From contig CM000151.3 in assembly GCA_000004695.1 (NCBI GenBank), positions 4,576,001-4,640,000 on the forward strand: a stretch of DNA of 64,000 bases, read 5' to 3'. The DNA is from Dictyostelium discoideum (taxonomy: Eukaryota). Under the pieces are notes generated by a model. That model saw only the letters and a list, made by a program, of their open reading frames with translations. It did no database searches and had not been told where the DNA came from. Shown here piece by piece: positions 5,042-63,515 of this stretch. Positions within the stretch are counted from its first letter, which is position 1; each line of letters begins with the position of its first letter. The translations under genes and the position numbers were made by a program.

Positions 5042-5490
5042 CCTTAGACATTGTTTTTTTAAATTTATTTGTTAAGTTATTATTAATGATTAAAAAAAAA
5101 AAAATTGTTTCTTTTTATACAAAAAAAAATAAAAAATAAAAAATAAAAAAAAAAAAATAAAAAAAAAAACTTTTTGCCCACTCATTTATTTTTTTTATTA
5201 TTATTATTTTTATTATTAAAAACTCATTCCTAGTATGGGCAAAATAATGATTTTTTTTTTTTAACTTTTTTTTTTTTTTTCAGACACTATTTTTATATCC
5301 CCCAATTAAAAAAAAAAAACCTTTTTTTTTAATAATAATTATAAAATTATAAAAAAAAAAAACTTGTTAGGTGTTTTATGAACCCACAGCATGAATAATA
5401 AAAAAACACTTCATTTTTTTTATTTTGTAATTTGACACACCACTAAAAAAAATTAAAAAAGTAAAAAAATGAAAAAATTAAAAAAAAAAA

Positions 5491-5545
5491 AGATTTAAAT
5501 CACCTTTTTTATTAATTGAATCGTGATTGACACCCACTTTCAATT
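5491..5545. repeat. Dispersed repeat of about 55 bp (agatttaaatcaccttttttatt..ttgaat.gt.attg.cacccactt). Second copy at 7417..7470.
   Basis: Near-identical 55-mers at 5491-5545 and 7417-7470, each followed by T-rich repeats. Confidence 0.6.
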
Positions 5546-5582
5546 TTTTTTTATTTTTATTTTTTTTATTTTTTAATAATTG

Positions 5583-6700
5583 TTAATTTAATGAAAGTTT
5601 AATAAATGAACAAAGAATGTTTGGTAAACTTGAAACTTTATCAATTTTAAAATTTGATAATTTAATTAAATTATTCCATTCATTTAAAGTTCTTTCTTTA
5701 CCACCATTTAAAATATTAATTGTATCTATTTAAAATTTAAATTAAAAAATATAATAATTAATAATAATAATTAAAAATAATTAAATTAAATTTAATTTCA
5801 AAAGATACATACGATATTCAATTGAAATTGGAATTGATTTTTTATTTTTATAAATTATATGATCAAATATATAAATACAAACTTCATTTTGATATGAAGA
5901 TTTAATTGATTTATAAATTTTATTTAAAATTTCTAATACTTGATTATCGCTAAACATATGGAATATATATTTAACTAAATAACAATTGCCAATTGGAAAT
6001 GTTTCATCAGTGAAAAAGTTACCCATTATTTCAAAATAACGATTATCTTTATAATTTTTTTCATTATTTTCAATTACTTCTTTTAAATCATAATTAATAC
6101 CTTTTTCAATGATTGAATTGTTTAAATGATATTTATCCAATATTTTCTTAATAGATTCACCTTGAGAACCACCCAAATCAACAATTGTTTTAAAATTACT
6201 AAAATCAACAATTTCTAAAATTGAATCAATTTGAGTTCTAGTGTATTCAGTCAATGTATTGTGAAAATATTTTTTAAGATTTTTTTCTTTATCAATGAAA
6301 TCAAAACCATCATTATAACCACTATTAAAAGTGCCCATTGCTTTTCCAGTTTTAAGACTTTCTTCAATATGTTTAAAATATGGTAATAATGTAACTTGAA
6401 AATATGAATCATTTACCCATGGATACTTATCTGTATCATTAATTAATGTTTCAGAAATTTCAGTATTTGAAAATAGTCTATCAATTTCTTCATCTTCTTT
6501 AAAAATACCCATAGTAGATAATGTTCTCAATAAAACATATAATCCATGCTCATTATATCCATTACATTCTTAATTGTTTAATACTTTTTGAACCATTTTT
6601 TAATTTATTTGGAATTTCTAATTCTAAAATAACTTTTAATGAGTATGATTTTATATAACCAGTTGCAATATCATATATAAAATTTTTAATTTGAATATTT
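5583..6700 (-). CDS. Class I SAM-dependent O-methyltransferase (COMT-like, plant-type). Core exon 6530..5813, last exon 5725..5583. N-terminal segment about 6700..6560 is in another frame.
   Basis: DLGGSQG SAM motif I, the dimerisation-domain motif LYVLLRTLSTMGIF, and C-terminal NGGKERTLNEWNNL (OMT motif GGKERT). GTATGT donor after ...SIEY. The upstream segment MENIQIKNFIYDIATGYIKSYSLKVILELEIPNKLKNGSKSIKQLRM* is in a different frame with no plausible intron between. Confidence 0.7.
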
Positions 6701-6760
6701 TCCATTATTATTATTATTTATTATTACTATTTCTTTTAATTTTTTTTTTTTAAATAATCC

Positions 6761-6878: not shown

Positions 6879-6884
<6 letters not shown>

Positions 6885-6965
<81 letters not shown>
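6885..6965. repeat. Poly(T) homopolymer of about 81 nt.
   Basis: Uninterrupted T run read directly from the sequence. Confidence 0.95.
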
Positions 6966-7260
6966 CAGTTAATTTCCGACCTATTACATCTCCAATTGGT
7001 TGTCAAAGTAATTGGAATTTCATCAAATTCCTATAATGGTATATTTTACTTATTAAATGATAATAAATAGGCAATTTTTATAATTAATAAATGAGGTATG
7101 TCATTATCTTTAATATTATTATTGTTTCAGATTTATGTGTAAACAAATGAGTGAATTTTAAATTTTCAGAATTTAAACTATTTACAAGAATATTATTAAA
7201 ATAATTATCTATTATTCTTTATTTTGAGTAAATAAATTCAATAATCCTAATAAAAATTAC

Positions 7261-7390
7261 CATTCAAAAATTGTAAACCAAAACCATGTAATAATTCACC
7301 CATTGCATCATTTCTAGTAACAGCACCAATACTTTCTATATGACAAAAATTAATAGCTAAAGTAGGTAATCCTATTCTTCCATATTTGAA
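7261..7390 (-). pseudogene. Isolated fragment of a polyketide synthase ketoreductase (KR) domain C-terminus.
   Basis: Minus-strand translation YGRIGLPTLAINFCHIESIGAVTRNDAMGELLHGFGLQFLNGNFY* is paralogous to the KR segment at 16880-17030 (RRSIGLPALAINFGHIGSIGVVTRNDAISELLHGFGLQSMNGN). It has no upstream or downstream PKS context and ends in a stop. Confidence 0.5.
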
Positions 7391-7589
7391 AGTAGGTAAT
7401 AAAAAGTAAAAAAAACAAGATTTAAATCACCTTTTTTTATTTTTGAATTGTAATTGGCACCCACTTTTATTTTTTTATTTATTATTTTTATTATTATTTT
7501 TATTATTTTTATTATTATTTTTATTATTATTTTTGTTATTATTTTTGTTATTATTTTTATTATTATTATTTTTATTATTATTAATCAGT

Positions 7590-8764
7590 TTAAGACAATG
7601 AAAAAGAATTTTTAAAATCAGAATTTAAATCATCTGTATTATAAAATGTTAATGGTATTGTTTTAACCACTTCAATACTTTCATTTTTAAATGACTCTTT
7701 TTCTTTTTCTTTTTGTTCCTCTTCTTTTTTTTCTTCTTTTTTTTCTTCCTCTTTTTCTTTTTCTTCATGATCTTGGGCTTTGGATGTTAAATGAAAATGA
7801 TAATCTGGTGATGGAATTAAGTCAACATTATCATTACCACTTAAAAGTCTGATTAATTTGAGGAATGGTTTTTCAAGATTAAAATTTGTTCTAACCGATA
7901 GTTCAAAATATGAAATATTCTTTTTACGATGAAATATAATCTGACTTGGGTTAATTCTTTTACCCATTGATTCTACTTTATTACCAACTAAAACCATTGG
8001 AACCACCTTACCTGTTATTCTTAATAATTCATTAAACCAATCGTTAACGCTTCTATATGATTCTCTTGAACAAACATCAAACATTATAATTGCACATTCC
8101 GCTCCAGTCCTATTACAATAATATTAATTAATATTAATATTAATACAATAAATGTTATTTTTTTATATTTATAGTGAATGGAGAGTGTGAGAGTGAGAGA
8201 GAGAGAGAGTGAGTGAGGTATACTTACATATAATCATCTCTCATAGCTCCAGGTAATCTAGTAAAAGCCATATCCCAAATACTGAAATTAACATCACCAA
8301 TAGTTGTTTTAAAATTAAATTTATGAACACTACAACCAAAAGTTGCTAAATAAAAATAAATAAAAATAAAAATATTGGTTATTATTATTTTGGACTGATA
8401 GTTTAATTTAAATTAAAGAGAATAATAAACCTACCAACATATTGAGTTTCAAATTCACCTGTTAAAAGTCTATTTATATAGGTGGACTAATAATAATATG
8501 ATATTAGTATATTTAAATATATTTGAAAAAGTTTATATATATAAAACCTACTTTACCAACTCCACCATCTCCAATTAATACTAATTTAATTTCTTTAGTA
8601 TTGTCAAATTTTTTAACTACTGGTAATGATGGTTTATTTTTTGATGATGATAATCCCAATGAAAATTGCGCACTTGATGGCGATGCTGCTGTTGTTGTTT
8701 TTGGTGTTCCAAAATCAAATGGTGGTGCTGTTGGTGGTGGTCCAAATTCAAATAGTGATGCTGT

Positions 8765-8861
<97 letters not shown>

Positions 8862-10068
8862 CCCAATCCAAACGGTGAACTTAATGGTGATGGTGCTGTT
8901 GGTGAACCCGATCCAAATGATGGCGTACTTGGTGGTACCAATCCAAATAATTCTTGTTCTATTTTTGTAATTTGTCCATATCTAAATGGTGGTGCTGTTG
9001 ATGGTGATGCTGTTGTTGTTGTTGTTGCTACTGTGTTTGATGATCCCGATTCAAATGATGGTGCTGTTGGTGATCCCGATCCAAATGATGGCGTACTTGG
9101 TGGTACCAATCCAAATAATTCCTGTTCTATTTTTGTAATTGGTCTATATCTAACTGGTGGTGCTGTTGGTGTTGATGCTGTTGTTGATGCTGTTGTTGTT
9201 GTTGTTGTTGTTGCTACTGTGTTTGATGATCCACCAAATCCCGATCCAAATGATGGTGCTGTTGGTGATCCCGATCCAAATGATGGCGTACTTGGTGGTC
9301 CAAATCTAAATAATTCTTCTTCTATTTTTGTAATTGATCCATATCCAAATGGTGATGCTGTTGATGTTGATGCTGTTGTTGTTGTCGTTGTTGCTGCTAC
9401 TGTGTTTGATGATCCACCAAATCCTAATGAAAATGCATCTCCTGATGGTAAAAGTGGAAGAGGTGAAACAAAACGAACGTTATCATTACCACTTAATATT
9501 TTGATTAATTGAATGAATGGTGTTTCAAATTTATAATTTGATTTACTTGAAATTTCACAATAGTGAATATTCTTACTACGATGAAAATTAATTTCCTTTG
9601 CTTTAACTTTACGATCTTTGATATCAACTTTATTACCAACTAAAATAATTGGTATATTATTACCTAATTCCTTTGTTAATTCATTAAACCAACTTGGTAC
9701 ATTCCTATATGAAACTCTTGAAGAAACATCAAACATAATAATTGCACATTGACTTCCAACACTATTATAATATATATATAATTAAATATTTTAATATATA
9801 TATATATATATATATACTTTTAATTATGAATTTTTTAAAATAAACTTACTAATATAAATGTCTAAATACTTCAAATTTTTCATCACCACAAGTATCCCAA
9901 ATATCAAAATTAACATTGCCGATATTAGTGTAAAGAATTAGATTACTTAGTTCTACTCCAACCGTAGCTATATTTTTATTTTATTTTTTTTATGTTTTTA
10001 TAATTAATAAAAATAAAAAAAAAGTTAACTATTTTCATAATAATAGTAATAATAATAATAATAATAAC

Positions 10069-11706: not shown

Positions 11707-12496
11707 ATTATTATTATTATCAATGATTTAATTGATGACAATCCGTTGAAGAAGGGAACCATTCCAATCAATCAGTGTTTCATTTACTGTAACAAATGTA
11801 TTTTTTGTAATTCCCAACTTTTATTAAAAAAAAAAAAATATTATTAATTATTATTAAAATAAAATTAAAAAAAAAATTTTAACTAAGTAAAAAAAAAGTA
11901 AAATTTTAACATTATTATTAAAGTAAAAAAAAAAAAAAAAATTAGCCAAGATTTGTCACAATAATTTTTGGCCTTTATAACGTCAAAGATGATAAAAATG
12001 ATTTAAATCTATTTTTAATATGAATTCATAGTATAGTTAAATAGAGCACAAAAACAAAAAAAAAAAAAAAAAAAGTGTTGACCATTTTGTTTTTTGAAAT
12101 TTTTTAACAAATTTGTATTTTTCTTTTTTTTTTTTTTAAATTGATCTTCCAATAGGATATTTCCAAAAAAAAAAAATAAAAAAATAAATAAAAATAATAT
12201 AAAATATAAAAAAAAAATATCCTGTAAAATTAAAGATTATTATTAGAATTGTTTTAAAATAACCCAATATTGGGTTAATTGATGAAAAAAAATAAAAAAA
12301 AAATATCAATCAAAAAAAAAAAAAATAAAAATAAAAATATCTGGTTGAGGTACGAAAAAGTAACCGCAAATTTTTAAACAATAAATGGCCTCAAAATTTT
12401 TAAAAAATAAAAAATTCTTTTTTTCTTTTAAAAGACCATCATAATATAATCCAATATTTCTTTTTTTTTGAAATACAGAAAGTTTGTCACACAAAA

Positions 12497-14931
12497 ATGA
12501 CATTAAACCAAATAATTTTATCATTGATTTTGGGTTTGAGTTTAATGACTACAATCATTAAATCAGTTCCAATGGACCCAACAATTTATATTGAAGGTAC
12601 AATTTTTGATCAATGGCCAGGTATGTTTTCAAAAAATAAAATAAAAATTTATATAATTATAATTTTTAATTTTTATTATTATTATTACTATTATTTTTAT
12701 TTTACTAAACTTTTATTTTTTACTACCTTTTTATTTATTTTTTTTTAAAAAAAAAGAATATAATTATAATTTTGAAAAAACCAACCCAGGAAGTAATGTT
12801 AAAACCCTTGGAATGGTAAAAGCAAAATTGAACTCAACAACAAAAGTTCCAGAACTTTCTTCAGATGATACTAAAACTTCACCAAATACATTAGGTACTA
12901 TGCAATATCCAGAGTTATTTAAATATCACTTTACATCAAATGTTGATGCACCAGCATCCAAAAACTCTGGTAAAAATTTACCAATGAAAATACAATTCAA
13001 ATTAGATCAAGACAATAGTGGTTTTTATACTTTTTTCAATCAAACTTTTTTCCCAAGTAAGTAGTGTAAATTATTTAATTAACGAGAGAAAAAAAAAATA
13101 AATAAAATATTAATAATATCTTTTTAATTAGTTGATAACATGGGCTACGATGTAGATCCATCATTTAGAATTTATAAACAAAGTGGTAACTATCATAATT
13201 TCCATTTTTGTGTAAAGGTATGTGTTGAATAAATTTAATTAGTTTTTTAACTTTTTATATAATTTTAAAACTAATTTTAATTATTTTATTTTATTTTAAA
13301 AATTAGATGAATAGTCGTTTTACTTATAATGGAGGTGAAGTTTTTAATTTTAAAGGTGATGATGATTTATGGGTATATATTGATGATAAATTAGTAGTTG
13401 ACGTAGGTGGTATTCATCCAGCACAAGATGGATCTGTTAATCTTGATACATTAGGTTTAATTAAAAATAAAGTTTACCCATTAGATTTATTCTATTGTGA
13501 AAGACATACTGATGGTTCAACTATTAGTATTCAAACTACTATTCAAGCTTATTGTGCCTGTAAGTTTAATTTATATTTAGTACCAAATTAAAATAATATT
13601 TTAATATTTATTATTTCTTTTTTTTTTTTTTTTTAGGGTATGATTATTGTGGTGTATGTGGTGGTACAGGTGCAGTTTGTTGTAATGCTAAAGCTAATTG
13701 TGATGATGGTGATTTATGTACAATTGATAGTTGCCCACAACCAAATTTAGCATTCCCAGATCTTCAATCAGTTTATAAGAATTGTTCTCATATTCCAAAA
13801 GATTGTCCACCAGCAAATAAATGTCAAGTAAATTCATGTGATAAAACTACAGGAAATTGTAAACCAGAAAATTTAAAGTGCCCAGACAGATCAAATGAGT
13901 GTCTTAAAAATACAGGTTGTGATGATTTAACCGGTTGTAAATATGTTAGTATATGCACAGATTCATGCGATAAAAAAGGTAATGCTTGTGTTGCAGGTAA
14001 ATGTCAACAAAAAACAACTAGCGATTGTGCTGCTGAGTTAGATGATAATTCATGTAAAGTATATTCTTGTAATTCAACTCGTGGTGGTTGTTACTCTGAA
14101 AACAAATGTAAACCAGATCCAACTCAAATTTGTGATGTTGCAAGTTGTGATGATGGTGCTTGTAGTATCAAAACTTTACCACCTGATGAATGTAATTGTG
14201 GTTGTAAACCAAACTTTTGCCAAAAGAGTAATTGTGTTAAAAACCCATCAAATAATCAATTCGAATGTTCTCTTTTACCAGCAGATGGTATTGATGATGG
14301 TAATGCTTGCACTGAAGATATTTGTGATGCAGTGGCCCAAAAAATAACTCATGTACCATATGATACTTGTAAAGGCTGTATGTCATGTAATCCATCAAAT
14401 GGTGATTGTGAAGCTCATAACGAGGTTTGTAATGATTTTAATGCATGTACTGAAAATGTCTGTTCTCCAGTTAAAGTTGGTGCAGGTGTTGGTGAATGTG
14501 TAACTACCAATACAACATGTGCACCAACCACAAACGTTGATAAATGTAAAAACTACCTTTGCGATTCTGAAAAAGGTTGTTATGAAACCGATGTAGTTTG
14601 TCCAGATAGTGGAAATTGTAAAGTTGGTCATTGTGATTCCAAGGTAGGTTGCTCTTTGAAGCCACGTGTCTGTAAATCACCAGCTTTTTGCATCGTAGCA
14701 GAATGTGATGAAACTGTTGGTTGCATTGCATTTGAGAGACGTTGTGCATCAAGTAATCCAAAATGTAAAGCAGGTATTTGTGTAAATGGTACAACACCAG
14801 AAGAAGGTGAATGTGAATCTGTAAATTATGATCCAAAACCATTTATTTGTCAAACTGGTGCTATAGTTTCTACTGCTGTAATTGCTGGTGTAACTGTTGC
14901 TGGTGCTGTTGCTCTTGGTATTTTCATTGTA

Positions 14932-14974
<43 letters not shown>

Positions 14975-15176
14975 TTATTATTTTAATTCCAATTCTAATT
15001 CTAATTTTTTTATTTATTAATCATTTTAAAATAATTAGTATGGTGGTAAACGTGGTTATGATTATTGGAAAGAAAGTAGAAGCATTTCTATGAGTTCTGC
15101 TGTTTCAAGTCCAATGTATGTTCCTTCTGCAAATGCTTCTGAAAATCCACTTTATATTCCAGAAGGAGAATTATAA
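12497..15176 (+). CDS. Psi-family type I membrane protein with a PA14 domain and Cys-rich repeats. Exons 12497..12620, 12790..13056, 13132..13217, 13307..13559, 13637..14928, 15039..15176.
   Basis: ATG at 12497 with a signal peptide ([23 protein letters not shown]). PA14-like core [26 protein letters not shown]. Long exon of CxxC / C-x-C Cys repeats. TM helix [16 protein letters not shown]. Short cytoplasmic tail exon ...[10 protein letters not shown]. Every intron is GTATGT/GTAAGT...AG with matching phases. Confidence 0.8.
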
Positions 15177-15667
15177 ATTAAAAATAAATAAAAAATTGTA
15201 CTATATTAAATGATTTACCAAAATAGAACTCAAATACTCAAACATGGTTATTTGTAACAAAATAATAAAAAAAAAAAAAATTAAAATAAATAAAATAAAA
15301 TTAAATTAAATAAAATTTTTAAATAAAAAAACTAATATTAAAAAATAAAAAAATTATTTGTTCAAAAAAAAATGTTTTGTTGACTTAATTTCATCACCAG
15401 ATTCTCAATTTAATTAACATCATCATCTTTATTCAAAGCCCAAGGTCATGAAGAAAAAATGAAAAGAAAAAAATGAAGAAAAAAAAAAAAGAAAAAAAAA
15501 AAGAATATTTAAAAAAAAATGAAAATATTTCCATGATTAATACAATACCATTAACATTTTATAATCTAGATGATTTAAAATCAGATTTTAAAAATTCTTT
15601 TTCCTTGTTGTCATAACAAATTAATAATTTTTATAGAAAAGATAATAATAAATAATAAATAATAATA

Positions 15668-15709
<42 letters not shown>

Positions 15710-15963
15710 AAATTAATAGTAATTATAAAATAAAAAATAAATAACATTTAATCTAATTTCAAATACTCATTTTCTAACAAGGAATCTGTGATTTTTATAA
15801 TAGTAAAAAATTAAAATATAATACACAACTGTATATCAACATACACCCTCCCCCTCATATCTCATACGATTATTGAGAATAAGTTGAAATGTATGTAAAT
15901 TTATATATAAATAAATATATATATTTTCAAAATGATATTTTTATTATTTTATTTTGTTTTTTA

Positions 15964-17439
15964 AAAAATAAAATGCAAATGGAGTTTGACAATAAAAGTA
16001 AAAGCAAATATCAAAATGATGTTGCCATTATTGGGTTGGGTTTTAGGTTAACTGGTAACTCAAACTCACCCAAATTATTTTGGTTTGTATTTTACTTTTA
16101 AAAAAACCACACACATATATAAAATATAAAATAATATTAATAATTTGATAATATTATAATCATAGGAATAATTTAATTAATAAATTTGATGGCGTTGTTG
16201 AAATTGATAGATGGAGTAAAAACTATTATTTAAATAATGAAATTAAAAATCATCAAGGTGGTTTAATATCATTAGAAGAACAAATAAAAATGTTTGATCC
16301 ACTTTTCTTTTCAATTCCACCATCTGATGCTGAAACAATTGATCCACAACAAAGACTACTTTTAAAATGTATTTATAATAATTATATATACTTAATGATT
16401 TTTATATAATATATATATATATATATATTAATTATTTTATAATATGATAGGTGTTTGGGAAGGATTTGAAGATGCAAATATTGATCCAATTAAATTACGT
16501 GGTAGTAATACAAGCGTTTACATTGGTTTGTTTATCCACAAATGATTATTTTAATAATTTAAAAAATACAAAGGAAACCTTAACTAATGTATTTGGATCA
16601 TCAGCACACAGTGAATCAAATAGAATTAGTTATTGTTATGATTTTAGAGGTCAATCAATTCACGCCAAAGAGCTTTTTTGAAAAGAAGAATAAAAAACAT
16701 TAAAAACCAAAAAAACTTGAAAAGCATAAAAACTTTAGGTTGTATTTATCTTCATCAACTATCATTAAAATATAATTGGAAATTAAAGAATTTTATAATT
16801 CCATCATCTATATCATCTCTATTTGGTGTTCAAAATCAATGTGGTTATGTTAGTGCTAATTGTATTAGATAGTTTTGCAAAGTATAGAAGATCAATTGGT
16901 TTACCTGCTTTGGCTATTAATTTTGGTCATATTGGAAGTATTGGTGTAGTTACTCGAAATGATGCAATCAGTGAATTATTGCATGGCTTTGGTTTGCAAT
17001 CTATGAATGGTAATATTTTGTTAGGTTCATCAGATTTATTTAGTCAAAATAAAGAAATAATTGATAATGATTATAGTAATATTATTGTAAGCAGTTTAAA
17101 TTTTGAAAATTTAAAATTCAGTCATTTGTTTACAAATAAATCTGCTTTTAAACTTAATTCAATATCAAATAATAATAATATCTATGGTAATAACAATAAT
17201 AATAATAATAGTAAGGATATATATCTCAATTGGTAATTTCAAAAATTGACTATTTATTATCAATTAATTAATAAAATATTAATTCAAATATACCATTATC
17301 AGAATTTGGCGGAGATAGTTCAATAATTACTCAAATTAAAAATTGGTTAGATAAATTTAAAAATAACCACTTTACAATATCTGAAATTCAAAAATATTCA
17401 ATTAATGATATAATTAAAAAATTAATAATTAACAAATAA
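15964..17439 (+). pseudogene. Polyketide synthase remnant. The KS N-terminus (2 small introns) is joined to the KR C-terminus and ACP, with frameshifts and an internal deletion.
   Basis: MQMEFDNKSKSKYQNDVAIIGLGFRLTGNSNSPKLFW | [16 protein letters not shown]...DPQQRLLLK | [26 protein letters not shown] is a typical Dictyostelium PKS KS start. A +1 shift follows (attggtttgtttatcc), then STNDYFNN...NRISYCYDFRGQS, which ends without the DTACSSSL active site. From about 16790 the frame reads GVQNQCGYVSANC (1-nt shift) then LDSFAKYRRSIGLPALAINFGHIGSIGVVTRND.. (KR C-term). At 17290-17439 the frame reads EFGGDSSIITQIKNWLDKF...LIINK* (ACP-like GxDS). Confidence 0.6.
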
Positions 17440-17608
17440 GATAAATATATAATTATGTCTTATAATTTTATTTAATGTTTACTATTTGATTAATTTTTAA
17501 AACATGTTTCAAAAAAAATTAAAAAAAAACAAAAAAAAAAAATATAATAATAAAAATAATAAGAAAAATAAAAATGATAATATATTTATAAAAGGTTTTG
17601 AATGCTGT

Positions 17609-19098
17609 TTATTCTGAAATGTTTTTAGTTCCTCTTAAACGACCAGTACGACGGGCAGCAATTAAACCAACTTTCTTACCAGCTGGATCGTCTCTCTTGG
17701 TTGTAGTGGCATGACCAACATGTTGATGATTACCACCACCGTGTGGATGTTCTACTGGATTCATAGCAACACCTCTAACCTTTGGCCAGTTATTCTTCTT
17801 AACTCTGTATTTGTGGAAAGCACGACCAGCTTTGAGCATTGGTTTATCGATACGACCACCACCGGCAACAATACCGATCATAGCACGAGCTAATGAAGAA
17901 ACGTTCTTCTTTGAACCTGATGGTAATTTGATACGGGTAACACCTTCATCTGGGTTGTGTGAGACGATGGTAGCATAGTTACCTGAACAACGAGCAACAG
18001 CACCACAATCACCGAGTTTTTCTTCAACGTTGCAAATGATGGTACCTTCTGGGAGTTTACCAATTGGGAGGATGTTACCAATGGTGAGGGTGGCTTTTTT
18101 ACCAGCGAAAACAAATTGACCAGTGTGCATACCTTCTGGGGCGATGAATAATTGTTTGTCTAATTTGAATTGGGTTAAGCCTTTGAAAACAACACGGGCT
18201 AATGGAGCACCTCTACCTGGATCGTGGATGATCTCCTTGACAACACCTTTAACGTAACCTTGACGTTCGGCATAATCTAAGGCACGGAAACGTGGGGTAC
18301 CTTTACGGTGGTGAGTGTGTGCACCGAAAACTGAACCGGCTTTACCTTTTCTTTGAGCTAAATTTTTTAAAAAAAAAAAAAAAATAAAAAAATTGATATA
18401 GATTAATACCTTTTTTTTTCGTTTTTTTATTTTTTTTTTTGGGAAAACCAATGAGAAGTTTAATTTTTTTTTTTTTTTTGAAAATAAAATAAAATAAATG
18501 CTATAAATTGATTATTTTTTTTTTTATTATGTGTGATTCTAATAAATTTTAAAGATTATCCAATTTATGGTCATTTCTAAACTATCTTTCTTGATAAAAT
18601 AATCCCATTATGTATCAAAAAACTAGTTTATTATTAACCAAAAAATAAGATAACCTAACCCTGGTTTCAACTCTAATTTACTAATGAAATATTCCAATTT
18701 TTTTTTTTTATTTTTTTTTTTTATGGTTTTTTTTTTTTCGGTTTTTTATTTATTATTTTTTATTTTTTATTATTACTACTACTACATTATCTCTTAATCA
18801 TCAATAACTATTCCTGTATTCTAACTAGTTGAATGAAATCTTAAATATAAAAAAAAGGTATCCAAAAATATTTATTTAAAAGAAAATTGAAATTTTATTT
18901 TTTTTTGATTGTTTTTTTTTTTGTTTTGATTATTTAATTTTACTGATAATTATATTATTTTATTTATTTTTATTGGTAATTATTTTATTTTTATATTATT
19001 TATTTATTTATTTATTTTTTTAAAAAAAAAAAAAAAATAAAAGTTATCAAAGGTTAACAAAGAGATAAAAATTATTTACCTCTGATTATTCTACCCAT
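17609..19098 (-). CDS. rpl8: 60S ribosomal protein L8 (uL2). Exons 19098..19080, 18357..17609.
   Basis: Exon 2 encodes [20 protein letters not shown]...[11 protein letters not shown]...[14 protein letters not shown]...[53 protein letters not shown]...[14 protein letters not shown], an unambiguous uL2. Exon 1 was inferred as ATGGGTAGAATAATCAGAG (MGRIIR+G) at 19098-19080 with GTAAAT donor and ttag acceptor. This implies an intron of about 720 nt. Confidence 0.8.
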
Positions 19099-19898
19099 TT
19101 CGCGTTTTTATCTGTATATCAAAAAAGTGAACAATGCCGCGTTTTGCGTTAATTTTTTTTTTGGTGGAGTCTACCGAAAAAAAAAAAATTCAAAAAAAAA
19201 AAAAAAAAAAGATGCCACCCACTAAAAATTTGAGTTTTTTACATAACCTTTACATAAAGTTATGTAAAAAAAAAAAGATTTGAAAAAAAAAAAAAAAAAA
19301 AAAAAAAGCGAAAATAAAATTTTAAAAAATCTAGGGAAATTTAACAAAAAAAGTAATAAGCAAGGACTATAATTAAAATTAATATTAATTTTTTTTTTTT
19401 TTAAATCAAATACGATTGTTGAATAATATTAAAAAAAAAAAAAAAAAAAAAGAAAAAGGAATTTAATAAAAATTTAAAAATAGAACCCATTCCTTTTTTT
19501 TTTTCTAATTGTTTTTTTTTTTTTACCACAAATCTTGGAAAAAAAAAATAAAATAAAAAAAAAAAAAATAAAAAAAAAAAAAAAAAAAAAATTTTAATTT
19601 AATTTGATTAAACCAATAAATAATTGATAAAGAAAAAACACTTTTGTTATTTTTTTAATTTTTTAATTTTTTCTTATTGATAACCAAAACTAAAAATTAT
19701 TCTGCCAACCTAAAAAAATGGAAATAAAAATAAAAATAAATTAAATTAATTTTTAATTTATAGAAATTGATTAAAAAATAAAAAAATAAGAACAAATTAA
19801 AGACAAAAAAATAAAACAAAAAACTTAATTAAACAAATAAAAAAAAAATGTAAAAAAAATTAAATTTTAGAATTTTTTTTTTCACTTGAAACATCAAA

Positions 19899-31654: not shown

Positions 31655-34600
31655 TTAGCTTCTACTTTGTAATGAATGAATATTATTTTTAAACTTCATT
31701 TCCTTCTTTCTCATTACAAAATGATAGGTAACTGAGGATATTACTACTGCAGCAAATGCGACACTACCCACTACAATACCAGCAATTGCACCACCACTTA
31801 ATCCACTGGATTTTTGAGAACAAATTGAATTTGGTGATGAAGATGAACTTGATGAATGATCTAATAATACTGAGAAATCAGGATCTACTATAACTTCAGA
31901 TTTATACTGTGGTATTATAATACCAATATATGAAGATGAGAATGATTCAGAATTTGATTGAGTTTGATTATTTTCAATAACTCTATTATCGATTGGGGTA
32001 ATTAGTCCATCTGCAATACCTCTTTTTAAGAATCTTGCATACATTGAATGATCTCCAATTTGAATTTTTAAATAATCTTCGTTTGTATTATTTCCAAATT
32101 GTTGAGATGAACAAATATCGTCACTGCTAGATGATTCAAATGTTGCTGACATTAATAATTCTAATTTACTTAATCGATTTCTAAATGGATATGAATTGAT
32201 TGAAATTGTATATTTTGAAGTTGATGGGTTCATTTGTAAATTATTACCAGCGAATGATATATTTGTAGCCTTATCAAACCATTGAATAGTTACATTTGTT
32301 TGTGATATTGTAATGTCATCTCTTGTAATATTAGTTATATACAATGATGTATTATTAGTTAAATCACTGTAAATCCATTTTTCAAAGTAATAGGTATTGA
32401 TTACATTATATTCATAATCGAGTTCTCTTAAAGCTACTAATGATATTAAAGATCTAAATGTAATATCAAGATTCGATGAGGTGGTAGTTGTTCCGTTTGG
32501 TGTTGAAATTTCGGTTGATGGATCGGTTGTATTAATTGATGGTTGTGGTACAATAATAACTTTGGATGTACAGTCAATACCAACCCATGGTGTGAAACAA
32601 ACACAACCCGATGTACTAGTATCACAATAACCTTGATTTGAACCACCACATTCTGGTTTTCCTGGACATTGTGGTCTTTTAGTTGGTGTCGGTGTTGGTG
32701 TTGGTGTTGGTGTTTCAGATGAAGATTCAGATGGTGTTTGAGATGGTGTTTGAGATGGTGTTTCAGTTGGTGTTTCAGTTGGTGTTTCGGTTGGTGTTTG
32801 AGTTGGTGTTTCGGTTGGTGTTTGGGTTGGTGTTTCAGTTGGAGTTTGAGTTGGTGTTTCAGTTGGAGTTTGAGTTGGTGTTTCAGTTGGAGTTTGAGTT
32901 GGTGTTTGAGTTGGTGTTTGAGTTGGTGTTTGAGTTGGTGTTTCAGTTGGTGTTTCAGTTGGTGTTGGTGTTTGAGTTGGGGTTGGTGGATCTGGAATAA
33001 ATAATAATACTTTTTGATATGGATAAATAAAATATTCATTTGAAGATATTGATTTATCATTTTCTAATATAATACTAAAGTTACTACCTTGATCCATTTC
33101 AGAGATACCGCCTAATAAAATAGCAGCACCCCCAACAGTTTTTTTAACTTGTAATGGTTTAGTAGTTGATTTATAATTGAATGTTGCACCAGTAACTGAT
33201 TTAAATCCTTTACCTGTTAACCATAAATCACCACCTAATGTAGAAATTCTATCAGAACCTGTAATAACTGGAACATCGATTGTATATGTTGTATTTATTA
33301 AATATGGGAAACCTAATTGTTTAAAATCATTAGAGCTATAACCACTATAATATCCACCATTATTTACTAAACCATAAACTGATAATAAAATTCCAAATGG
33401 GTAACCATATGCTACTGGTAATGAAATTGAACATTGATATGATTTTGAATTTGAATTGATTATTGTTTCAGATGTAATTTGACATTGAATTGTATTGAAA
33501 TCAGTTGAAGTTAAATAAATTACTGGGTAACTATTATTTTTAACACCAGATGCTAAATTTTCAACCTCTAAATTAAATGAAACAACTCTTTCACTTAAAC
33601 CTACATCAACTACAGTTTTATCACTAGAAAATTTTTTAATTACAACTGGTGTTGGATCACTTACTTCATTTGGACAAGTAACTGATATTTTATTGATTGA
33701 TGGATCATTAAAATAGTACATAAATGGATTATAAAGAGAGTTTAAAATAAATTTATAATCACTAAATAATGAAAATGTTGAATTATTATTTTCAGTATCA
33801 AATAGTAATACATCAGAAATAATATAGTCTTGAGAAATACAAGGAGTTGATAAATTAATACCAACTGTATATACTTGTTCAAATACATCAGTTGTTGGAT
33901 ATAATGTAAAATTATAATTTGAACCATCAATTGCACCTTTAACTACAATATAACCACTTTTAAAACCATTAATTGGATCACTAATTGTTAATTTCCAACC
34001 AATTTCAGTATTAGTTTGAATTGTAACTGGTGATGAAGATGGATACTTTTGAATTCTTTTAAATATTGGACCCATTAAATCAGCATCTTTATTAAACAAT
34101 TTGAATATTAAATTAGTAATTAATTTTTTCAATAAAAATAAATAAATAAAAATTTTAACTTACTTTCTGAAATTACATTAAATGAAGCATTACTACCTAA
34201 TGCACTATTCAATACCCATTGTTTTCTATTAAAAAAGAGGGCATAAGACATTGGACCTTGTCTCGAATTTCTTGGCAAATAAAATTCAACTTGAAACATT
34301 TTAATTGTATCATTCCATTGTGCTGGCCAAGCTTTATCTAGTAATCCTTGAGGATAGATTGGATCATCATTCAAATATTCTTTTATCCATTGTTGATGAT
34401 GAACCAATAGAGATATTGGTGAATTGATATCTAAATTTGACATATTAAAATATAAAATATTACCAGCAACAACATTTGTAACATCCATTGTTTTATAAAA
34501 AATTGAAGCATTTTGAACATTATAAAAATTGAAACCTTTAAAAGCAATTAAAAAAAAGTTAGTTTATATGTAATAAAAAACAATAGTTCATTATAATATT

Positions 34601-37287: not shown

Positions 37288-40015
37288 TTATTTTACTTTT
37301 TCCAATTTATTTGTAATGGATCTATTAAATTTATTTTCTTGATTCCTTTTTACAAAATGAAAGGAAAGTGAGAATATTACTACTGCAGCAAATGTGACAC
37401 TACCTATTACAATACCAGCAATTTCACCACCACTTAATCCACTGGATTTTTTAGAACAAATTGAATTTGGTGATGAAGATGAACTTGATGAATGATCTAA
37501 TAATACTGAGAAATCAGGATCTACTATAACTTTAGATTTATACTGTGGTATTATAATACCAATATATGAAGATGAGAATGATTCAGAATTTGATTGAGTT
37601 TGATTATTTTCAATAACTCTATTATCGATTGGGGTAATTAGTCCATCTGCAATACCTCTTTTTAAGAATCTTGCATACATTGAATGATCTCCAATTTGAA
37701 TTTTTAAATAATCTTCGTTTGTATTATTTCCAAATTGTTGAGATGAACAAATATCGTCACTGCTAGATGATTCAAATGTTGCTGACATTAATAATTCTAA
37801 TTTACTTAATCGATTTCTAAATGGATATGAATTGATTGAAATTGTATATTTTGAAGTTGATGGGTTCATTTGTAAATTATTACCAGCGAATGATATATTT
37901 GTAGCCTTATCAAACCATTGAATAGTTACATTTGTTTGTGATATTGTAATGTCATCTCTTGTAATATTAGTTATATACATAGATGTATTATTAGTTAAAT
38001 CACTGTAAATCCATTTTTCAAAGTAATAGGTATTGATTACATTATATTCATAATCGAGTTCTCTTAAAGCTACTAATGATATTAAAGATCTAAATGTAAT
38101 ATCAAGATTCGATGAGGTAGTAGTTGTTCCGTTTGGTGTTGAAATTTCGGTTGATGGATCGGTTGTATTAATTGATGGTTGTGGTACAATAATAACTTTG
38201 GATGTACAGTCAATACCAACCCATGGTGTGAAACAAACACAACCCGATGTACTGGTATCACAATAACCTTGATTTGAACCACCACATTCTGGTTTTCCTG
38301 GGCATTGTGGTTTTTTAGTTGGTGTTTGAGTTGGAGTTTGAGTTGGTGTTTGAGATGGTGTTTCAGATGGTGTTTCAATGGGGGTTTCAGATGGTGTTTG
38401 AGTTGGTGTTTCCGTTGGTGTTTGAGATGGTGTTGGAATTGGAGTTGAAGGGTCTGGTGTTACAGTTGGTGTTGGAGTTGGTGATGGAGTTTCTGGTTCA
38501 CGAGTTGGTACATAATTCAATACTTTTTGATATGGATAAATAAAATATTCATTTGAAGATATTGATTTATCATTTTCTAAAATAATACTAAAGTAGGTAC
38601 CTGGATCCATTTCAGTGATACCGCCTAATAAAATAGCAGCACCTCCAATAATTTTGTTAACTTGTAATGGTTTAGTAGTTGATTTATAATTGAATGTTGC
38701 ACCAGTAACTGATTTAAATCCTTTACCTGTTAACCATAAATCACCACCAAATGTTGAAATTCTATCGGAACCTGTAATAACTGGAATATCGATTGTATAG
38801 GTTGTATTAATAAAATATTGGAAACCTAATTTATTAATATCATCAGAGCTATAACCACTGTAGTATCCACCATTATTTACTAAACCATAAACTGACAATA
38901 AAATTCCAAATGGGTAACCGAATGCTACTGGTAATGAAGCTGAACATTGATATGATTTTGATTTTGGTGTTATTATTGTTTCAGATGTAATTTGACATTG
39001 AATTGTATCGAAATCAGTTGCAGTTAAATAAATTACTGGGTAACTATTATTTTTTACACCAGATGCTAAATTTTCAACTTCTAAATAAAATGGAACGATT
39101 CTATAGCTTAAACCTACATCAACTGTTTTATTACCACAAACAAAATTTTTAATTACAACTGGTGTTGGATCATATACCTCATTTGGACAAGTAACTGATA
39201 TTTTATTGATTGATGGATCACCGAGATAATTCATAAATGGATTAAAAAGTGATAATCCTATGAATTTGTCATCATTAAATAATGTAAATGTTGAATTATT
39301 ATTTTCAGTATCAAATAGTAATACATCAGAAATAATATAGTCTTGAGAAATACAAGGAGTTGATAAATTAATACCAACTGTATATACTTGTTCGAATATA
39401 TTATTTGTTGGATTAATAGTAAAATTATAATTTGAACCATCAATTGCACCTTTAACTACAATATAACCACTTTTAAAACCATTAATTGGATCACTAATTG
39501 TTAATTTCCAACCGATCTCAGTATTAGTTTGAGTTATAACTGGTGATGATGATGATGGATACTTTTCAATATTTTTAAATATTGGACCTAGCAAATCCAT
39601 TTTTTCAGAAATTACATTAAATTGAGCATCACTACCAAATGCATTATTTAAAACAAATACATTTCTTTTAAAAAAGAGTGCATACGGTAAATTTCCACTT
39701 TTAGAATTTCTTGGCAAATAAAACTCTGCTTGAAACATTCTAATTGTTTCATTCCATTTTGCTGGCCAAACTTTATGATACAATTCAGATGGAATTGTTT
39801 GGTCTTGGATGGTTTGGAATTTTTGTGTTGATGGTTGGTGGTGAATAAATAAACTCAATGGTGAATCAATATCTATATTTGTCAAATTAAAATAAAGAAT
39901 ATTTCCTGCAACTGAATTTGTTACATTCATTGTTTTAAAAAGTATTGATGCATTTCTAATATCATACATATTGAAACCTATAATTAAAATTATTGTTTTA
40001 ATAATTTAGTTATTT

Positions 40016-51712: not shown

Positions 51713-55312
<3,600 letters not shown>

Positions 55313-55679: not shown

Positions 55680-57744
55680 TTATTTAGTTGGCAATAGTTT
55701 TACATGTTTGATAAAGAAATGTGTGGGAATAGAGTTTATAAAATTTAAACTATCATTATAGATACAAATAAATTCAAATGAAGGTGGCCATATTAAATCT
55801 GGTAATTCATCACAATTATAACCTGTAAAATAAAATGATTTCAAATTAGGTGGTAAGGCATCTCTATCGATAGTTGAATTGAAAAAATCTGAAATTCGTA
55901 ATAAAGTGAGTGATGATGGTAATACATCTCTTTGAATTGGTTGTTTGTAACTTGGTAATTTTAATACCCCTATGGATGATGGTAGATCTCCAACATTTAA
56001 GGGTTGATTAAAATCATAGATTTTTAATTTTTTAAGATTATTTGGTAAGAGACTATCGTTTAATTCGAATTCATCTGAAACTGTTAAAACTAGTTTTGAA
56101 ATAGTAGGTGGGAATTTTACATCTGTTAAATCTATTTGACTTACATTGAGTTTCAACGATGTTAAATTTTTGAAAAAATCTAAAGAGTGTAAATGTGGGT
56201 TCCGAGTAGTGAAATTCATTATTTTTAGTGTTTGAATTGTTTTGGGTAATATTTGAATATCAGAGAATGCGTTCATTGATAAATTTGTAATTGTTGGTGG
56301 AAAGAGAGCTGCATTATCTTTGTTTCTACCAAGATGTAAAGTTTTAATTGAGATTGGTAATGAGTTTGGTTCAAGTTTATGATTGCCCGACTTGAATATC
56401 AATGATGTAACATTGTGTGGAATCATTCCTTTTTCAATGGTCTGATTAAAAAAAGAATCAAACTCTAATGAAGTTGTACCACCTGGTATAGATGTCGAGT
56501 CTAATTTATTAGTACCTCTTTTAGAATCAAAAGAATAATCAAGAGTTGTTACTGATTTTGGTATTGATCCATATAGAATTATTCCTTGATAATTTGGATC
56601 TAATATCAATGAGGTGAGTGATGGTGGTAATTCATCTCTATGAATTGAATGTTGAAATGATTTTCCAAAAGTTAAAGATTTTAATGTTCTTGGTAGCAAT
56701 GGTATACCATTTGTGTCACTTAATGATTGATTAAACTCATCACTAAAATCAATCGATGTTAGACTATTACCAATCATATTACGAGTTAATTGTTGATCAA
56801 AATCAATCAATGTAATGGACTTACATGTATCTGGTATCCAATGGTCTACTAGTATAATATCTGAACAATCCATCTCTATATTTTCCGCAATTTGTGGCAT
56901 TGGATACCAATTTGAGTAACGTTGGTTTTCATATCCATTTAAATCAAATAATCTGATGTTATTAAAATAATTTCTATATTTATATGTTGAAAAATTATTT
57001 ATCCCTATATCAAAGCTATTATTATGATTATTATATATTCTAAGATGAAATAAAATTTGATCCCTAATAACCATATTTCCCCAAATTTTTTTAAATAATA
57101 TATAATTATTATCAATTGTTTGATTTTTTAGTTGATTTGTTCTTATATTATTATTATTAATATCAGGTTGTGATTTTAAAATTAATTGATTTAAATTATT
57201 ATTATTAATGGTAATATGATGATTTAAATTATTTTTAATGATTATAAGTATTGAACAATCGAATGAAATTCTTTTATTTCTATTGTTAATTGTGTCATTA
57301 TTATTATTATCTGTAATTGAATGAGTATATATAATTTCATTATTAGAATTATTGGTTGTAAATGTGTTTTTTAAATTTTGAATATGATTATTTAGTGTTT
57401 GAAATTGTTGATCATTTAATCCTTTTAAATCATTTAAATGCTTTTTTTCATCTTCTTCTTGTCTATATAAATATGTTTTTATAATTAGTATAATAATAAT
57501 AAAAATAATAAAATAAAAAATATAAAATATCAAAGTGTGTTAACGTATACAATTTTTTTTCTTTTTTATTTTGAAGGTTTTCATTATTGTTTTTATAATT
57601 ATTGATACTATTACAATAATCTTGAAGTTGATTGAATGTAATATTTAAACTATTAATTGATAATATTAATAAACAATTTAAAAGCTCTTCATTGTTTTTA
57701 TTATTATAATTATTAATTAAATAAGAGTAAATTATATTATCCAT
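55680..57744 (-). CDS. FNIP-repeat protein, copy 1. Exons 57744..57551, 57472..55680.
   Basis: Repeated FNQ...IP units (FNQSLSDTNGIPLLPRTLKSLTFGKSFQHSIHRDELPPSLTSL; FNQTIEKGMIPHNVTSLIF; FNQPLNVGDLPSSIGVLKL...). Exon 1 is MDNIIYSYLINNYNNKNNEELLNCLLILSINSLNITFNQLQDYCNSINNYKNN...KKL, followed by a GTATAC donor. Confidence 0.75.
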
Positions 57745-60120: not shown

Positions 60121-60185
60121 AAGAATATTTTAGAAAAGATTAAGGTTTTTATTTTAGAATTAATTGATATAAATTATTATTATTA

Positions 60186-63295: not shown

Positions 63296-63515
63296 TTGAT
63301 ATTCATAAAAAAAAAATAATAAATAATAAAATGGAATTAAAAAAGTAAGATTGACTTGTACAGAAATAGTTTTTCCTAAGGGATAACCAAAAAAAGGCAC
63401 TTTTTTTTGGCCCTCAAGGTGAAAAATAAAATTGGAACTTCCTGTGGGTAATTGAGTTAATTATGAAAAACTTAGTGATTTAGAATAAACCAAATTATTA
63501 AAAAATTTTCATTCC

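What the first reader, a model, noticed from the sequence alone, without database searches (positions are those of the whole stretch)
15964..17439. Polyketide synthase remnant with KS N-terminus joined to KR C-terminus and ACP; a second KR fragment lies 8.5 kb away
The locus keeps a canonical Dictyostelium PKS start with two small canonical introns and the first 140 aa or so of the KS domain. It then has a +1 frameshift and loses the KS active-site region. At about 16790 it resumes in the last 90 aa or so of a KR domain (a second 1-nt shift) and a terminal ACP (EFGGDSS). About 6 kb of AT/DH/ER/KR coding sequence expected in an intact PKS is missing. So this is a decayed pseudogene, not an assembly gap.

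A separate 130-bp KR C-terminal fragment of the same subfamily sits at 7261-7390 on the minus strand. It lies next to one copy of a 55-bp dispersed repeat (5491-5545 and 7417-7470). This suggests that pieces of PKS genes have been scattered by duplication or recombination.
Basis: partly seen in the sequence, partly recalled or inferred. Interest (0 to 1): 0.5.

Follow-up and report, generated by a model that had tools for sequence, protein, structure and literature searches.

The report
Dead polyketide synthase gene remnants

Summary
Window 15979-17439 (+) keeps a Dictyostelium-type PKS start, two GT-AG introns (83 and 82 nt) and KS residues 1-171. It then jumps through 62 nt of filler into the last third of a KR domain and an ACP. 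Syntenic loci from other Dictyostelium assemblies show what is missing. Between the same PA14-domain gene and rpl8, two diverged "D. discoideum" isolates carry a 2546-codon KS-AT-DH-cMT-ER-KR-ACP gene. The window lacks codons 172-2290 (6.36 kb). It also has a 4-nt duplication, 2-nt and 4-nt deletions and two adjacent stop codons. An independent 99.86%-identical assembly has all of these lesions, so this is not an assembly gap.

The "second fragment" is about 380 bp (7021-7404, minus strand), not 130 bp. It sits where the other isolates carry a full-length paralogue. The main remnant is preceded by a copy of the 3' end of the GTPase gene that precedes the stub, so the two are arms of an old inverted segmental duplication. 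The stub is followed by a frameshifted O-methyltransferase gene, and an intact PKS-OMT pair survives in another isolate.

Verdict: an unprocessed pseudogene of a known kind, in a family known for rapid turnover. Interest is low to moderate.

The parts
15378..15741 (+). Pseudogene copy of the 3' end and 3' flank of the Ran-like GTPase gene whose complete copy ends at 7590 (minus strand). It marks the left part of the inverted segmental duplication.
   Evidence: blastn: 7466-7827 matches 15741-15378 at 77.2% over 386 nt. tblastn: aa 137-163 of the GTPase ORF at 78%. Ran-like fragments also lie at this site in L001 and L004.
15979..16082 (+). PKS remnant B, exon 1 (codons 1-35). The ATG at 15979 is conserved. 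An extra in-frame ATG at 15973 is lineage-specific.
16083..16165 (+). Intron 1, 83 nt, GT..AG, at the same position as in the full-length orthologues.
16166..16368 (+). Exon 2 (codons 36-103).
16369..16450 (+). Intron 2, 82 nt, GT..AG.
16451..16660 (+). 5' end of exon 3: KS N-terminal domain to codon 171. It contains a frame-breaking 4-nt tandem duplication (GTTT GTTT, 16526-16533). It ends 5 codons before the catalytic Cys of the orthologue (DSACSGS).
   Evidence: Pfam PF00109 positions 2-169 of 252. Alignment to L001, L010 and L003. Breakpoint.
16661..16722 (+). 62-nt A-rich filler at the deletion junction. It replaces codons 172-2290 (6.36 kb) of the orthologue.
   Evidence: no source found in the window or in any fetched locus.
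16723..17439 (+). 3' end of exon 3: KR C-terminal third (from codon 2291), Asn-rich linker and ACP. Lesions: 2-nt deletion between 16861 and 16862; 4-nt deletion after 17218; TAA TAA at 17269-17274. GGDSS is at 17308-17322. The native stop is at 17437-17439.
   Evidence: Pfam KR 110-178 of 180 and ACP_SdgA_C. Alignment. Coordinates.
7021..7404 (-). PKS stub A: end of KR, linker and start of ACP (about codons 2340-2505), with its own small indels.
   Evidence: 83.5% to 16860-17144. 88.6% to the PKS of L014 over 7387-7130 and 76.5% over 7123-7021. tblastn. Full-length PKS at this position in L012 and L013.
7401..7511 (.).
   Evidence: The core is found here only in AX4-type sequence.
5473..5585 (.). 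R: first copy of the direct repeat, immediately 3' of the OMT stop. It is a single copy in loci that lack the stub and OMT block (L005) or that have the full-length PKS (L012, L013).
5583..6705 (-). O-methyltransferase gene (Methyltransf_2) directly downstream of stub A on the same strand. It carries a 1-nt frameshift within 6549-6579 and one 3' intron, so it is probably a pseudogene too. It is the partner gene of the PKS.
   Evidence: An intact PKS followed by an intact OMT pair is in L014.
6884..6965 (.). 82-nt poly(T) run (poly(A) on the gene strand) at the junction between stub A and the OMT upstream region.
   Evidence: Homology to L014 resumes at 6899.

Best explanation
Window 15979-17439 is an unprocessed (intron-retaining) pseudogene of a Dictyostelium iterative highly reducing type I PKS with the layout KS-AT-DH-cMT-ER-KR-ACP.

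It was killed in the AX4-type lineage by one large internal deletion that removed codons 172-2290. The break was repaired with 62 nt of filler. Since then it has drifted without constraint and has gained four further disabling lesions. It cannot make a working enzyme. The KS catalytic cysteine, the rest of KS, AT, DH, cMT, ER and the NADPH-binding half of KR are gone. The reading frame breaks after about 130 codons.

The fragment at 7021-7404 is the remnant of another copy of the same PKS. In the ancestor a block [Ran-like GTPase 3' end - PKS] existed twice in inverted orientation:
- site A: GTPase -> PKS -> OMT -> cbpE;
- site B: PA14 gene -> GTPase fragment -> PKS -> rpl8.

Each lineage then lost copies independently by deletion, transposon insertion and frameshifts.

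Shown: the homology, the breakpoints, the lesions, the synteny, and full-length copies at both sites in other isolates.
Inferred: the order of events, the direction of the duplication, the end-joining-like repair mechanism, and that the locus has no residual function.
For: 1. Domain content and lesions.

2. Source of the window. rpl8 is identical to EAL69949.1 and cbpE to EAL69942.1/Q869S9. Both are D. discoideum AX4 proteins, on a contig of 8,484,197 bp.

3. Site B in other isolates.
- L001/L006 (locus tags ACTFIW) has a 2546-codon gene between the PA14 gene and rpl8. It is interrupted only by a 1.8-kb element with 128-144-nt terminal inverted repeats.
- L010 (ACTFIR) has the same gene without that element, but with a 1.3-kb deletion and several frame breaks.
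- The window aligns to both on each side of the gap, at 87-91%.

4. Same remnant in a second assembly: L003 is 99.86% identical over 12000-19800.

5. Relaxed constraint. Over 383 shared codons the window branch has 20 nonsynonymous and 9 synonymous changes, against 14 and 20 on the four other branches (Fisher p = 0.042).

6. Site A in other isolates.
- L013 has an apparently intact copy: exon 3 is one 2448-codon ORF.
- L012 has a copy lacking codons 619-904.
- Both lie between the GTPase gene and cbpE.
- Within ACTFIW, copy A and copy B are 92-95% identical over 7.9 kb.

7. The GTPase 3' end is duplicated next to copy B.

8. L004 keeps small internal PKS fragments at both sites, so both copies predate that split.

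9. The stub is followed by the OMT. L014 has an intact PKS followed by an intact OMT pair, and its PKS is the best match to the stub at 88.6%.
Against: - I could not look at expression, so a transcript with some non-coding role is not excluded.
- The other assemblies are Nanopore plus Illumina (paper PMC12745789). Single-base frame breaks in L010 and L012 could be errors. The large features are not affected by this.
- Stub A is 13-17% diverged from every long copy, and the informative sites conflict: 2 against 2. It may therefore derive from an older, third copy rather than from the paralogue now seen at site A.
- Copies A and B within one isolate (92-95%) are more alike than the window remnant is to its positional orthologue (87-91%). 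This needs either gene conversion or a later re-duplication.
- The N:S test is only marginally significant.
Confidence: 0.9

Rival explanations
1. Assembly artefact: the reference collapsed or skipped about 6 kb of a real, intact PKS gene.
For: Dictyostelium PKS genes are long, AT-rich and similar to one another. PMC9618038 reports 88% identity between pks5 and pks7. Such genes are prone to collapse.
Against: There are no N runs. An independent long-read assembly has the identical junction, filler and small lesions (L003). The retained parts carry frame breaks and stop codons that a collapse would not create. tblastn finds no other PKS sequence in the 64 kb.
Confidence: 0.02
2. A still-functional shortened gene: a small KS-N peptide, a stand-alone KR-ACP or ACP protein, or a regulatory RNA made from the remnant.
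For: The promoter region, the start codon and both introns' GT..AG signals are intact. Automated annotation of GCA_054883475.1 calls two small 'genes' here, of 154 and 166 aa. The exons are better conserved than the introns.
Against: - The ORF from the ATG stops about 135 codons in, before any catalytic residue.
- The KR piece lacks its NADPH-binding half (profile 110-178 of 180 only).
- The ACP frame has TAA TAA 14 codons upstream of the GGDSS motif, and a frameshift before that.
- The N:S ratio on this branch is 2.2, close to my rough neutral expectation of about 3:1.
- The 154- and 166-aa gene models probably need short extra introns to bypass the lesions. This is my inference from their spans and lengths.
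Confidence: 0.04
3. The window never had a complete gene at site B. The full-length genes in ACTFIW and ACTFIR are later gains (a copy pasted in over an old fragment), and the remnant is an ancestral partial duplicate.
For: Copies A and B within ACTFIW/ACTFIR are more similar to each other (92-95%) than the window remnant is to either (87-91%). This would fit recent copying in that lineage.
Against: - The remnant has both true ends of the gene: promoter, exons 1-3 and native stop, plus about 120 bp of 3' flank homologous to the L014 PKS flank. These lie in the same flanks as the full-length gene.
- The two ends are joined by non-homologous filler, which is the signature of an internal deletion.
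- L004 keeps an internal ER-region PKS fragment at site B. A complete copy was therefore there before the lineages split.
Confidence: 0.05
4. Sub-question on the small fragment: stub A is not the remnant of the paralogue seen at site A in ACTFIW and ACTFIR. It comes from an older third copy, possibly moved with the OMT as a PKS-OMT block inserted between duplicated copies of repeat R.
For: - The stub is the most diverged sequence, 83-87% to all A and B copies, and is closest to the OMT-linked PKS of L014 at 88.6%.
- L012 and L013 have another tiny KR fragment plus a poly(A) run right after the GTPase gene, in addition to the full-length copy. That fragment shares the CCTACTTT variant with the stub.
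- L005 lacks exactly the segment between R and R' and has one R-like sequence.
Against: - Only one shared variant links the two small fragments.
- The MAFFT alignment of their flanks was uninformative.
- L004 has a PKS fragment fused to the OMT 3' part at site A. This fits a simple PKS-A followed by OMT ancestor.
- R and R' are only 82.6% identical.
Confidence: 0.3

Closest known systems
Dictyostelium discoideum pks pseudogenes. PMC9618038 speaks of 40 putative PKS genes 'including five pseudogenes' with reading frames interrupted by stop codons, citing Zucko et al. 2007.
   Same: Same organism and same gene family (iterative type I PKS). It is inactivated in the reference strain and retains the family's two small 5' introns.
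   Different: Those five are described as full-size genes interrupted by stop codons. This one has lost 83% of its coding sequence (2119 of 2546 codons). I could not check whether it is among the numbered pks genes or is flagged in dictyBase: Zucko 2007 is not held and the supplement is not held.
Dictyostelium highly reducing PKSs with KS-AT-DH-cMT-ER-KR-ACP architecture, such as Pks5, the dictyodene synthase (PMC9618038).
   Same: The full-length orthologue reconstructed from L001 has this domain order by Pfam. DH is inferred from its position only, because Pfam gave no hit there. The remnant's KS, KR and ACP pieces match the same models.
   Different: No catalytic function is possible in the window copy. 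The product of the intact relatives is unknown. The nearest other Dictyostelium KS sequences found were only 46-56% identical, so this is a distinct subfamily.
Lineage-specific birth and death of PKS genes in dictyostelids (Sucgang et al. 2011, PMC3188802).
   Same: That paper reports that most D. purpureum PKS genes lack D. discoideum orthologues and speaks of 'evolutionary fluidity'. This locus shows the same process at finer scale: duplication, then independent loss.
   Different: Here the turnover is resolved within the D. discoideum species complex, with breakpoints. At one syntenic locus there are three separate modes of inactivation: deletion, TIR-element insertion, and frameshifts.

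Membership tests
Functional iterative type I PKS | Complete KS domain with the catalytic cysteine (DxACSS-type motif) | tested here: not met
   The Pfam match stops at profile position 169 of 252. The sequence breaks 5 codons before the Cys of the orthologue's DSACSGS.
Functional iterative type I PKS | Acyltransferase domain | tested here: not met
   Absent. PF00698 is found at residues 556-867 of the orthologue only. tblastn of the full protein finds nothing else in the window.
Functional iterative type I PKS | ACP with a phosphopantetheine-attachment serine in an open reading frame | tested here: not met
   GGDSS is retained at 17308-17322. However, TAA TAA lies at 17269-17274 in the same frame and a 4-nt deletion lies after 17218.
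Functional iterative type I PKS | Uninterrupted reading frame across the gene | tested here: not met
   There are three frame-shifting indels, two nonsense codons and a 6.36-kb deletion.
Unprocessed (duplicated or unitary) pseudogene | Clear homology to a functional gene family | tested here: met
   Pfam KS 4.6e-34, KR 5e-14, ACP 4.8e-13. 87-91% nucleotide identity to full-length genes.
Unprocessed (duplicated or unitary) pseudogene | Introns and flanks retained, so it is not a retrocopy | tested here: met
   Both introns are at the orthologous positions with GT..AG. The upstream and 3' flanks are collinear with L001, L010 and L014.
Unprocessed (duplicated or unitary) pseudogene | A positional orthologue is full length in related genomes | tested here: met
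   L001/L006 and L010 carry it between the PA14 gene and rpl8.
Unprocessed (duplicated or unitary) pseudogene | Evolution without purifying selection | tested here: inconclusive
   20N:9S on this branch against 14N:20S elsewhere, p = 0.042, from only 383 codons.
Inverted segmental duplication | Two copies in opposite orientation that share sequence beyond the gene itself | tested here: met
   7466-7827 (-) matches 15378-15741 (+), which is the GTPase 3' end. 7021-7404 (-) matches 16860-17279 (+). Both copies are full length in L012/L013 and L001/L010.
PKS-OMT two-gene biosynthetic pair | PKS and O-methyltransferase adjacent on the same strand, both intact | tested here: not met
   In the window, stub A is followed 320 bp later by an OMT with a 1-nt frameshift. 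The intact pair exists in L014: a 2539-aa PKS, then a 346-aa OMT 2.4 kb downstream.

The most novel reading that the evidence does not exclude
The PKS-OMT pair behaves as a relocatable two-gene cassette. Copies of one PKS subfamily occupy three different chromosomal sites across the D. discoideum species complex:
- next to cbpE;
- next to rpl8;
- in one isolate, about 35 kb away next to FNIP-repeat genes.

At site A the block is bracketed by a 113-bp direct duplication (R and R') of sequence that is single-copy at the empty site. If that duplication was made at insertion, it would point to an unusual duplicative 'paste' mechanism for moving biosynthetic genes in amoebae. It would also mean that AX4-type lab strains have lost a metabolite that some wild relatives may still make.
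Probability: 0.25. Interest if true: 0.5.

Novelty: new member of a known kind. Interest (0 to 1): 0.3.

Why it matters
For genome annotation, this locus should be a single pseudogene. In GCA_054883475.1 it is called as two small "hypothetical protein" genes, which I infer needs artificial introns. The neighbouring OMT model there also has to get around a real frameshift.

For Dictyostelium natural-product work, the result shows that the standard lab lineage (AX4-type) has lost both copies of one PKS subfamily and probably its partner methyltransferase. One diverged "D. discoideum" isolate still has an apparently intact PKS. One "D. cf. discoideum" isolate has an apparently intact PKS-OMT pair. 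Those are the strains in which to look for the product.

For evolution, it is a compact, breakpoint-resolved example of the birth-and-death dynamics already inferred for this family. None of this changes what is known in kind.

Tried and rejected
- Long-intron rescue. Rejected: the orthologues carry the missing sequence as one continuous exon, and nothing PKS-like lies elsewhere in the 64 kb.
- Assembly gap. Rejected.
- Source of the 62-nt filler. blastn-short against the window and all loci found only A-rich chance hits.
- tRNA or TRE-type explanation for repeat R. There are no tRNA genes in the window.
- Retrocopy origin of stub A, suggested by the 82-nt poly(A) run on its strand. I consider this unlikely. 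The stub ends inside the ACP, not at the gene's 3' end. Homology to the L014 OMT upstream region resumes at 6899, inside the run. The run therefore sits at a deletion junction.
- Orthology of stub A with the tiny KR fragment of L012 and L013. The MAFFT alignment of the flanks was uninformative, and the 280-nt site-pattern test conflicted 2 against 2.
- A word-7, unmasked blastn on AT-rich DNA gave only noise.
- Protein searches returned no PKS hit longer than 749 aa. I could not name the closest numbered AX4 pks paralogue.
It was reached through cluster member ids instead.
- Zucko et al. 2007 and the supplement of PMC9618038 are not held. A search for DDB_G02740xx/02741xx identifiers found nothing.
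- I could not map every GCA accession to a strain name of PMC12745789.
Full report
**1. What the window is**

The window is 22% G+C. It encodes proteins identical to two D. discoideum AX4 proteins: ribosomal protein L8 (EAL69949.1) and calcium-binding protein E (cbpE; EAL69942.1, Q869S9). Both are recorded on a contig of 8,484,197 bp. From memory, that is the size of AX4 chromosome 2. I therefore treat the window as AX4-type D. discoideum; this is an inference.

**2. Checking the observation**

Three-frame translation and exon mapping confirm a PKS start with two GT..AG introns of 83 and 82 nt. The frame-corrected conceptual protein matches three Pfam models:
- ketoacyl-synt N-terminal, E = 4.6e-34, profile positions 2-169 of 252;
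- KR, E = 5e-14, profile positions 110-178 of 180;
- a highly-reducing-PKS ACP model, E = 4.8e-13.

I corrected several details. The retained KS piece is 171 codons. Homology resumes at about 16723 rather than 16790. The two "1-nt shifts" are a 4-nt duplication (16526-16533) and a 2-nt deletion (between 16861 and 16862). There is also a 4-nt deletion after 17218 and a TAA TAA pair at 17269-17274 inside the ACP.

**3. Finding the intact gene**

A protein search with the conceptual product gave one close hit, P0001. It is 92% identical over the KS part and comes from another "D. discoideum" assembly. Its contig (L001, GCA_054859355.1, locus tags ACTFIW) is syntenic with the window: PA14-domain gene, PKS, rpl8.

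The window aligns to L001 on both sides of a gap:
- 15881-16660 matches L001 9897-10677 at 86.8%;
- 16728-19749 matches L001 18851-21937 at 90.7%.

The 8.17 kb of L001 in between is absent from the window. Of that, 1.8 kb is an element with 128-144-nt terminal inverted repeats. It is inserted after the codons for GQGTQ of the AT domain, and the ACACAA repeated at both ends looks like a target-site duplication. The element is absent from the other copies.

With the element removed, the L001 gene reads as 2546 codons. By Pfam its layout is KS (13-387), linker, AT (556-867), cMT (1411-1602), ER (1839-2150), KR (2181-2359), ACP (2465-2543). A DH-sized gap lies between AT and cMT. The window lacks codons 172-2290, which is 6.36 kb. 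The catalytic Cys lies 5 codons beyond the left breakpoint. The junction holds 62 nt of A-rich filler with no detectable source.

**4. Not an artefact, and the state of the locus elsewhere**

I fetched the locus from eight more assemblies, using rpl8 and cbpE as anchors. These come from the 2025 set of Holland et al. (PMC12745789), sequenced with Nanopore plus Illumina.

| Locus (assembly) | What lies between the PA14 gene and rpl8 |
|---|---|
| L003 (GCA_054883475.1) | 99.86% identical to window 12000-19800, with every lesion. The annotators called it as two small genes (154 aa and 166 aa). |
| L010 (ACTFIR, GCA_054859385.1) | The long gene without the inverted-repeat element, but with a 1.3-kb deletion (codons 1725-2164) and several frame changes |
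| L004 and L005 | Only 0.8 and 0.5 kb of spacer |
| L007-L009 | A copine gene |

L004 nevertheless retains a 361-bp internal PKS fragment in its spacer. A complete copy at this site therefore predates that split.

**5. The second fragment**

It covers 7128-7404 and 7041-7099.

More importantly, 7466-7827 matches 15741-15378 at 77%. That segment is the 3' end of a Ran-like GTPase gene. The two PKS pieces are therefore the inner parts of an inverted duplication of the block [GTPase 3' end - PKS].

In ACTFIW and ACTFIR, the interval between the GTPase gene and cbpE contains a full-length PKS (L013 and L012).
- The L013 copy looks intact. Exons 1 and 2 are present and exon 3 is one 2448-codon ORF.
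- The L012 copy lacks codons 619-904.
- Within ACTFIW the two copies are 92-95% identical over 7.9 kb.

L004 has a 418-bp PKS fragment at this site, fused to the 3' part of an O-methyltransferase gene.

**6. The methyltransferase and the repeat**

In the window, stub A is followed on the same strand by an 82-nt poly(A) run and then by an OMT gene (6705 to 5583). The OMT has a 1-nt frameshift within 6549-6579, which the AX2-type assembly shares.

A search with the corrected OMT found an intact 346-aa relative in a "D. cf. discoideum" assembly (ACTFIZ). At that locus (L014), an apparently intact 2539-aa PKS lies 2.4 kb upstream of the OMT on the same strand. The pair sits next to orthologues of window genes at 51.7-63 kb. 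This is a third site, and the window has no PKS or OMT sequence there. Stub A is most similar to this PKS (88.6%). Window 6899-5569 aligns with the L014 OMT and its upstream region (85.5%).

L005, from the same assembly as L014, lacks exactly the bracketed segment and has a single R-like sequence. R' could be a duplication made when the block was inserted, or templated filler at the deletion junction. This is unresolved.

**7. Constraint**

I assigned codon changes to branches by parsimony over the 383 codons present in all five long or remnant copies. The window branch has 20 nonsynonymous and 9 synonymous changes. The four other branches together have 14 and 20 (Fisher p = 0.042). This fits relaxed selection but is weak. 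Exons remain much better conserved than introns, which suggests that the gene was inactivated late on this branch.

**8. Interpretation**

Best supported (confidence 0.9): the main feature is an unprocessed pseudogene, produced by a single large internal deletion with filler DNA and then eroded by small lesions.

The wider picture is inferred, with lower confidence in its details. An ancestral PKS, paired with an OMT, was duplicated in inverted orientation near rpl8. The lineages then lost copies independently:
- AX4-type: both copies, and probably the OMT;
- ACTFIR: both copies damaged;
- ACTFIW: one copy hit by a transposon, one apparently intact;
- L004: both reduced to fragments;
- ACTFIZ: none at these two sites, but an intact pair elsewhere.

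Open points:
- whether stub A descends from the paralogue now at site A or from an older copy;
- why copies A and B within one isolate are more alike than positional orthologues are between isolates (gene conversion or re-duplication);
- a curious coincidence of breakpoints with a tiny KR fragment in L012 and L013 (recorded in the notebook under "unexplained").

**9. Comparison with what is known**

PKS pseudogenes in D. discoideum are known: PMC9618038 describes 40 putative PKS genes "including five pseudogenes", citing Zucko et al. 2007. Rapid lineage-specific turnover of the family is also known (PMC3188802). This locus is one more example, unusually well resolved. I could not establish whether dictyBase already flags it.

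**10. Verdict**

It is a new member of a known kind, with interest 0.3.

Noticed in passing
window 5583-6705 (-): The O-methyltransferase gene next to stub A has a 1-nt frameshift within 6549-6579 (reading ..KSIKQL / ECNGYNEHGLY..). The AX2-type assembly shares it, and its 331-aa gene model there has to get around the frameshift. The gene is probably a pseudogene. An intact 346-aa relative exists in L014.
   Followed up: partly
L001 11857-13670: A 1.8-kb element with 128-144-nt terminal inverted repeats (92-96% complementary) and an apparent short target-site duplication (ACACAA). It is inserted in the AT domain of the otherwise open PKS-B of assembly GCA_054859355.1. A diverged partial copy lies at L001 3571-4325. 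There is none in the window. The family was not identified.
   Followed up: partly
L012 1320-1437; L013 about 660-780: A tiny extra KR fragment just downstream of the GTPase gene, followed by poly(A)/poly(T). It joins codons 2268-2289 to 2335-2352. It therefore lacks exactly the 135 bp that, in the window remnant, lies between the large-deletion breakpoint (16723) and the 2-nt deletion (16861/16862). The coincidence is unexplained.
   Followed up: partly
L003 11660-12252 and 12418-13126: Automated annotation of GCA_054883475.1 calls the remnant as two protein-coding genes (166 aa, and 154 aa with a KS hit). From their spans and lengths I infer that they use short extra introns to bypass the lesions. 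This looks like an annotation artefact.
   Followed up: partly
window 7590-8140 and 8513-9797 (-): Tandem Ran-like small-GTPase paralogues (7824-8140 matches 9476-9797 at 75%). The second has long Ser/Thr/Pro-rich internal repeats (8803-9252 matches 8986-9435). A third, pseudogenised 3' fragment is at 15378-15741.
   Followed up: partly
window 31655-34132 and 37288-39969 (-): Two tandem paralogues (89-94% identical over about 2.4 kb). They encode large Thr/Pro-rich, Cys-rich proteins that appear to be membrane-anchored.
   Followed up: no
window 55680-57797, 60145-60805, 61236-63331 (-): Tandemly repeated leucine-rich genes that look like FNIP-repeat genes (88-91% identical copies, plus a partial one). 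Their orthologues flank the intact PKS-OMT pair in L014, where one called product has a faint FNIP (PF05725) hit.
   Followed up: no
L014 11364-11745: After the intact OMT, L014 carries a 213-bp duplicate of part of the neighbouring gene (97% to window 51876-52088). It is followed by an isolated ACP-end fragment (PKS codons 2515-2546). This is more duplication debris.
   Followed up: no
window 6884-6965: An uninterrupted 82-nt poly(T) run (poly(A) on the gene strand) sits at the junction between stub A and the OMT upstream region.
   Followed up: partly
window 15973-15981: The window has an extra in-frame ATG two codons upstream of the conserved PKS start. The orthologues have AAAACAAATGG or AAAATAAATGG there.
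   Followed up: yes
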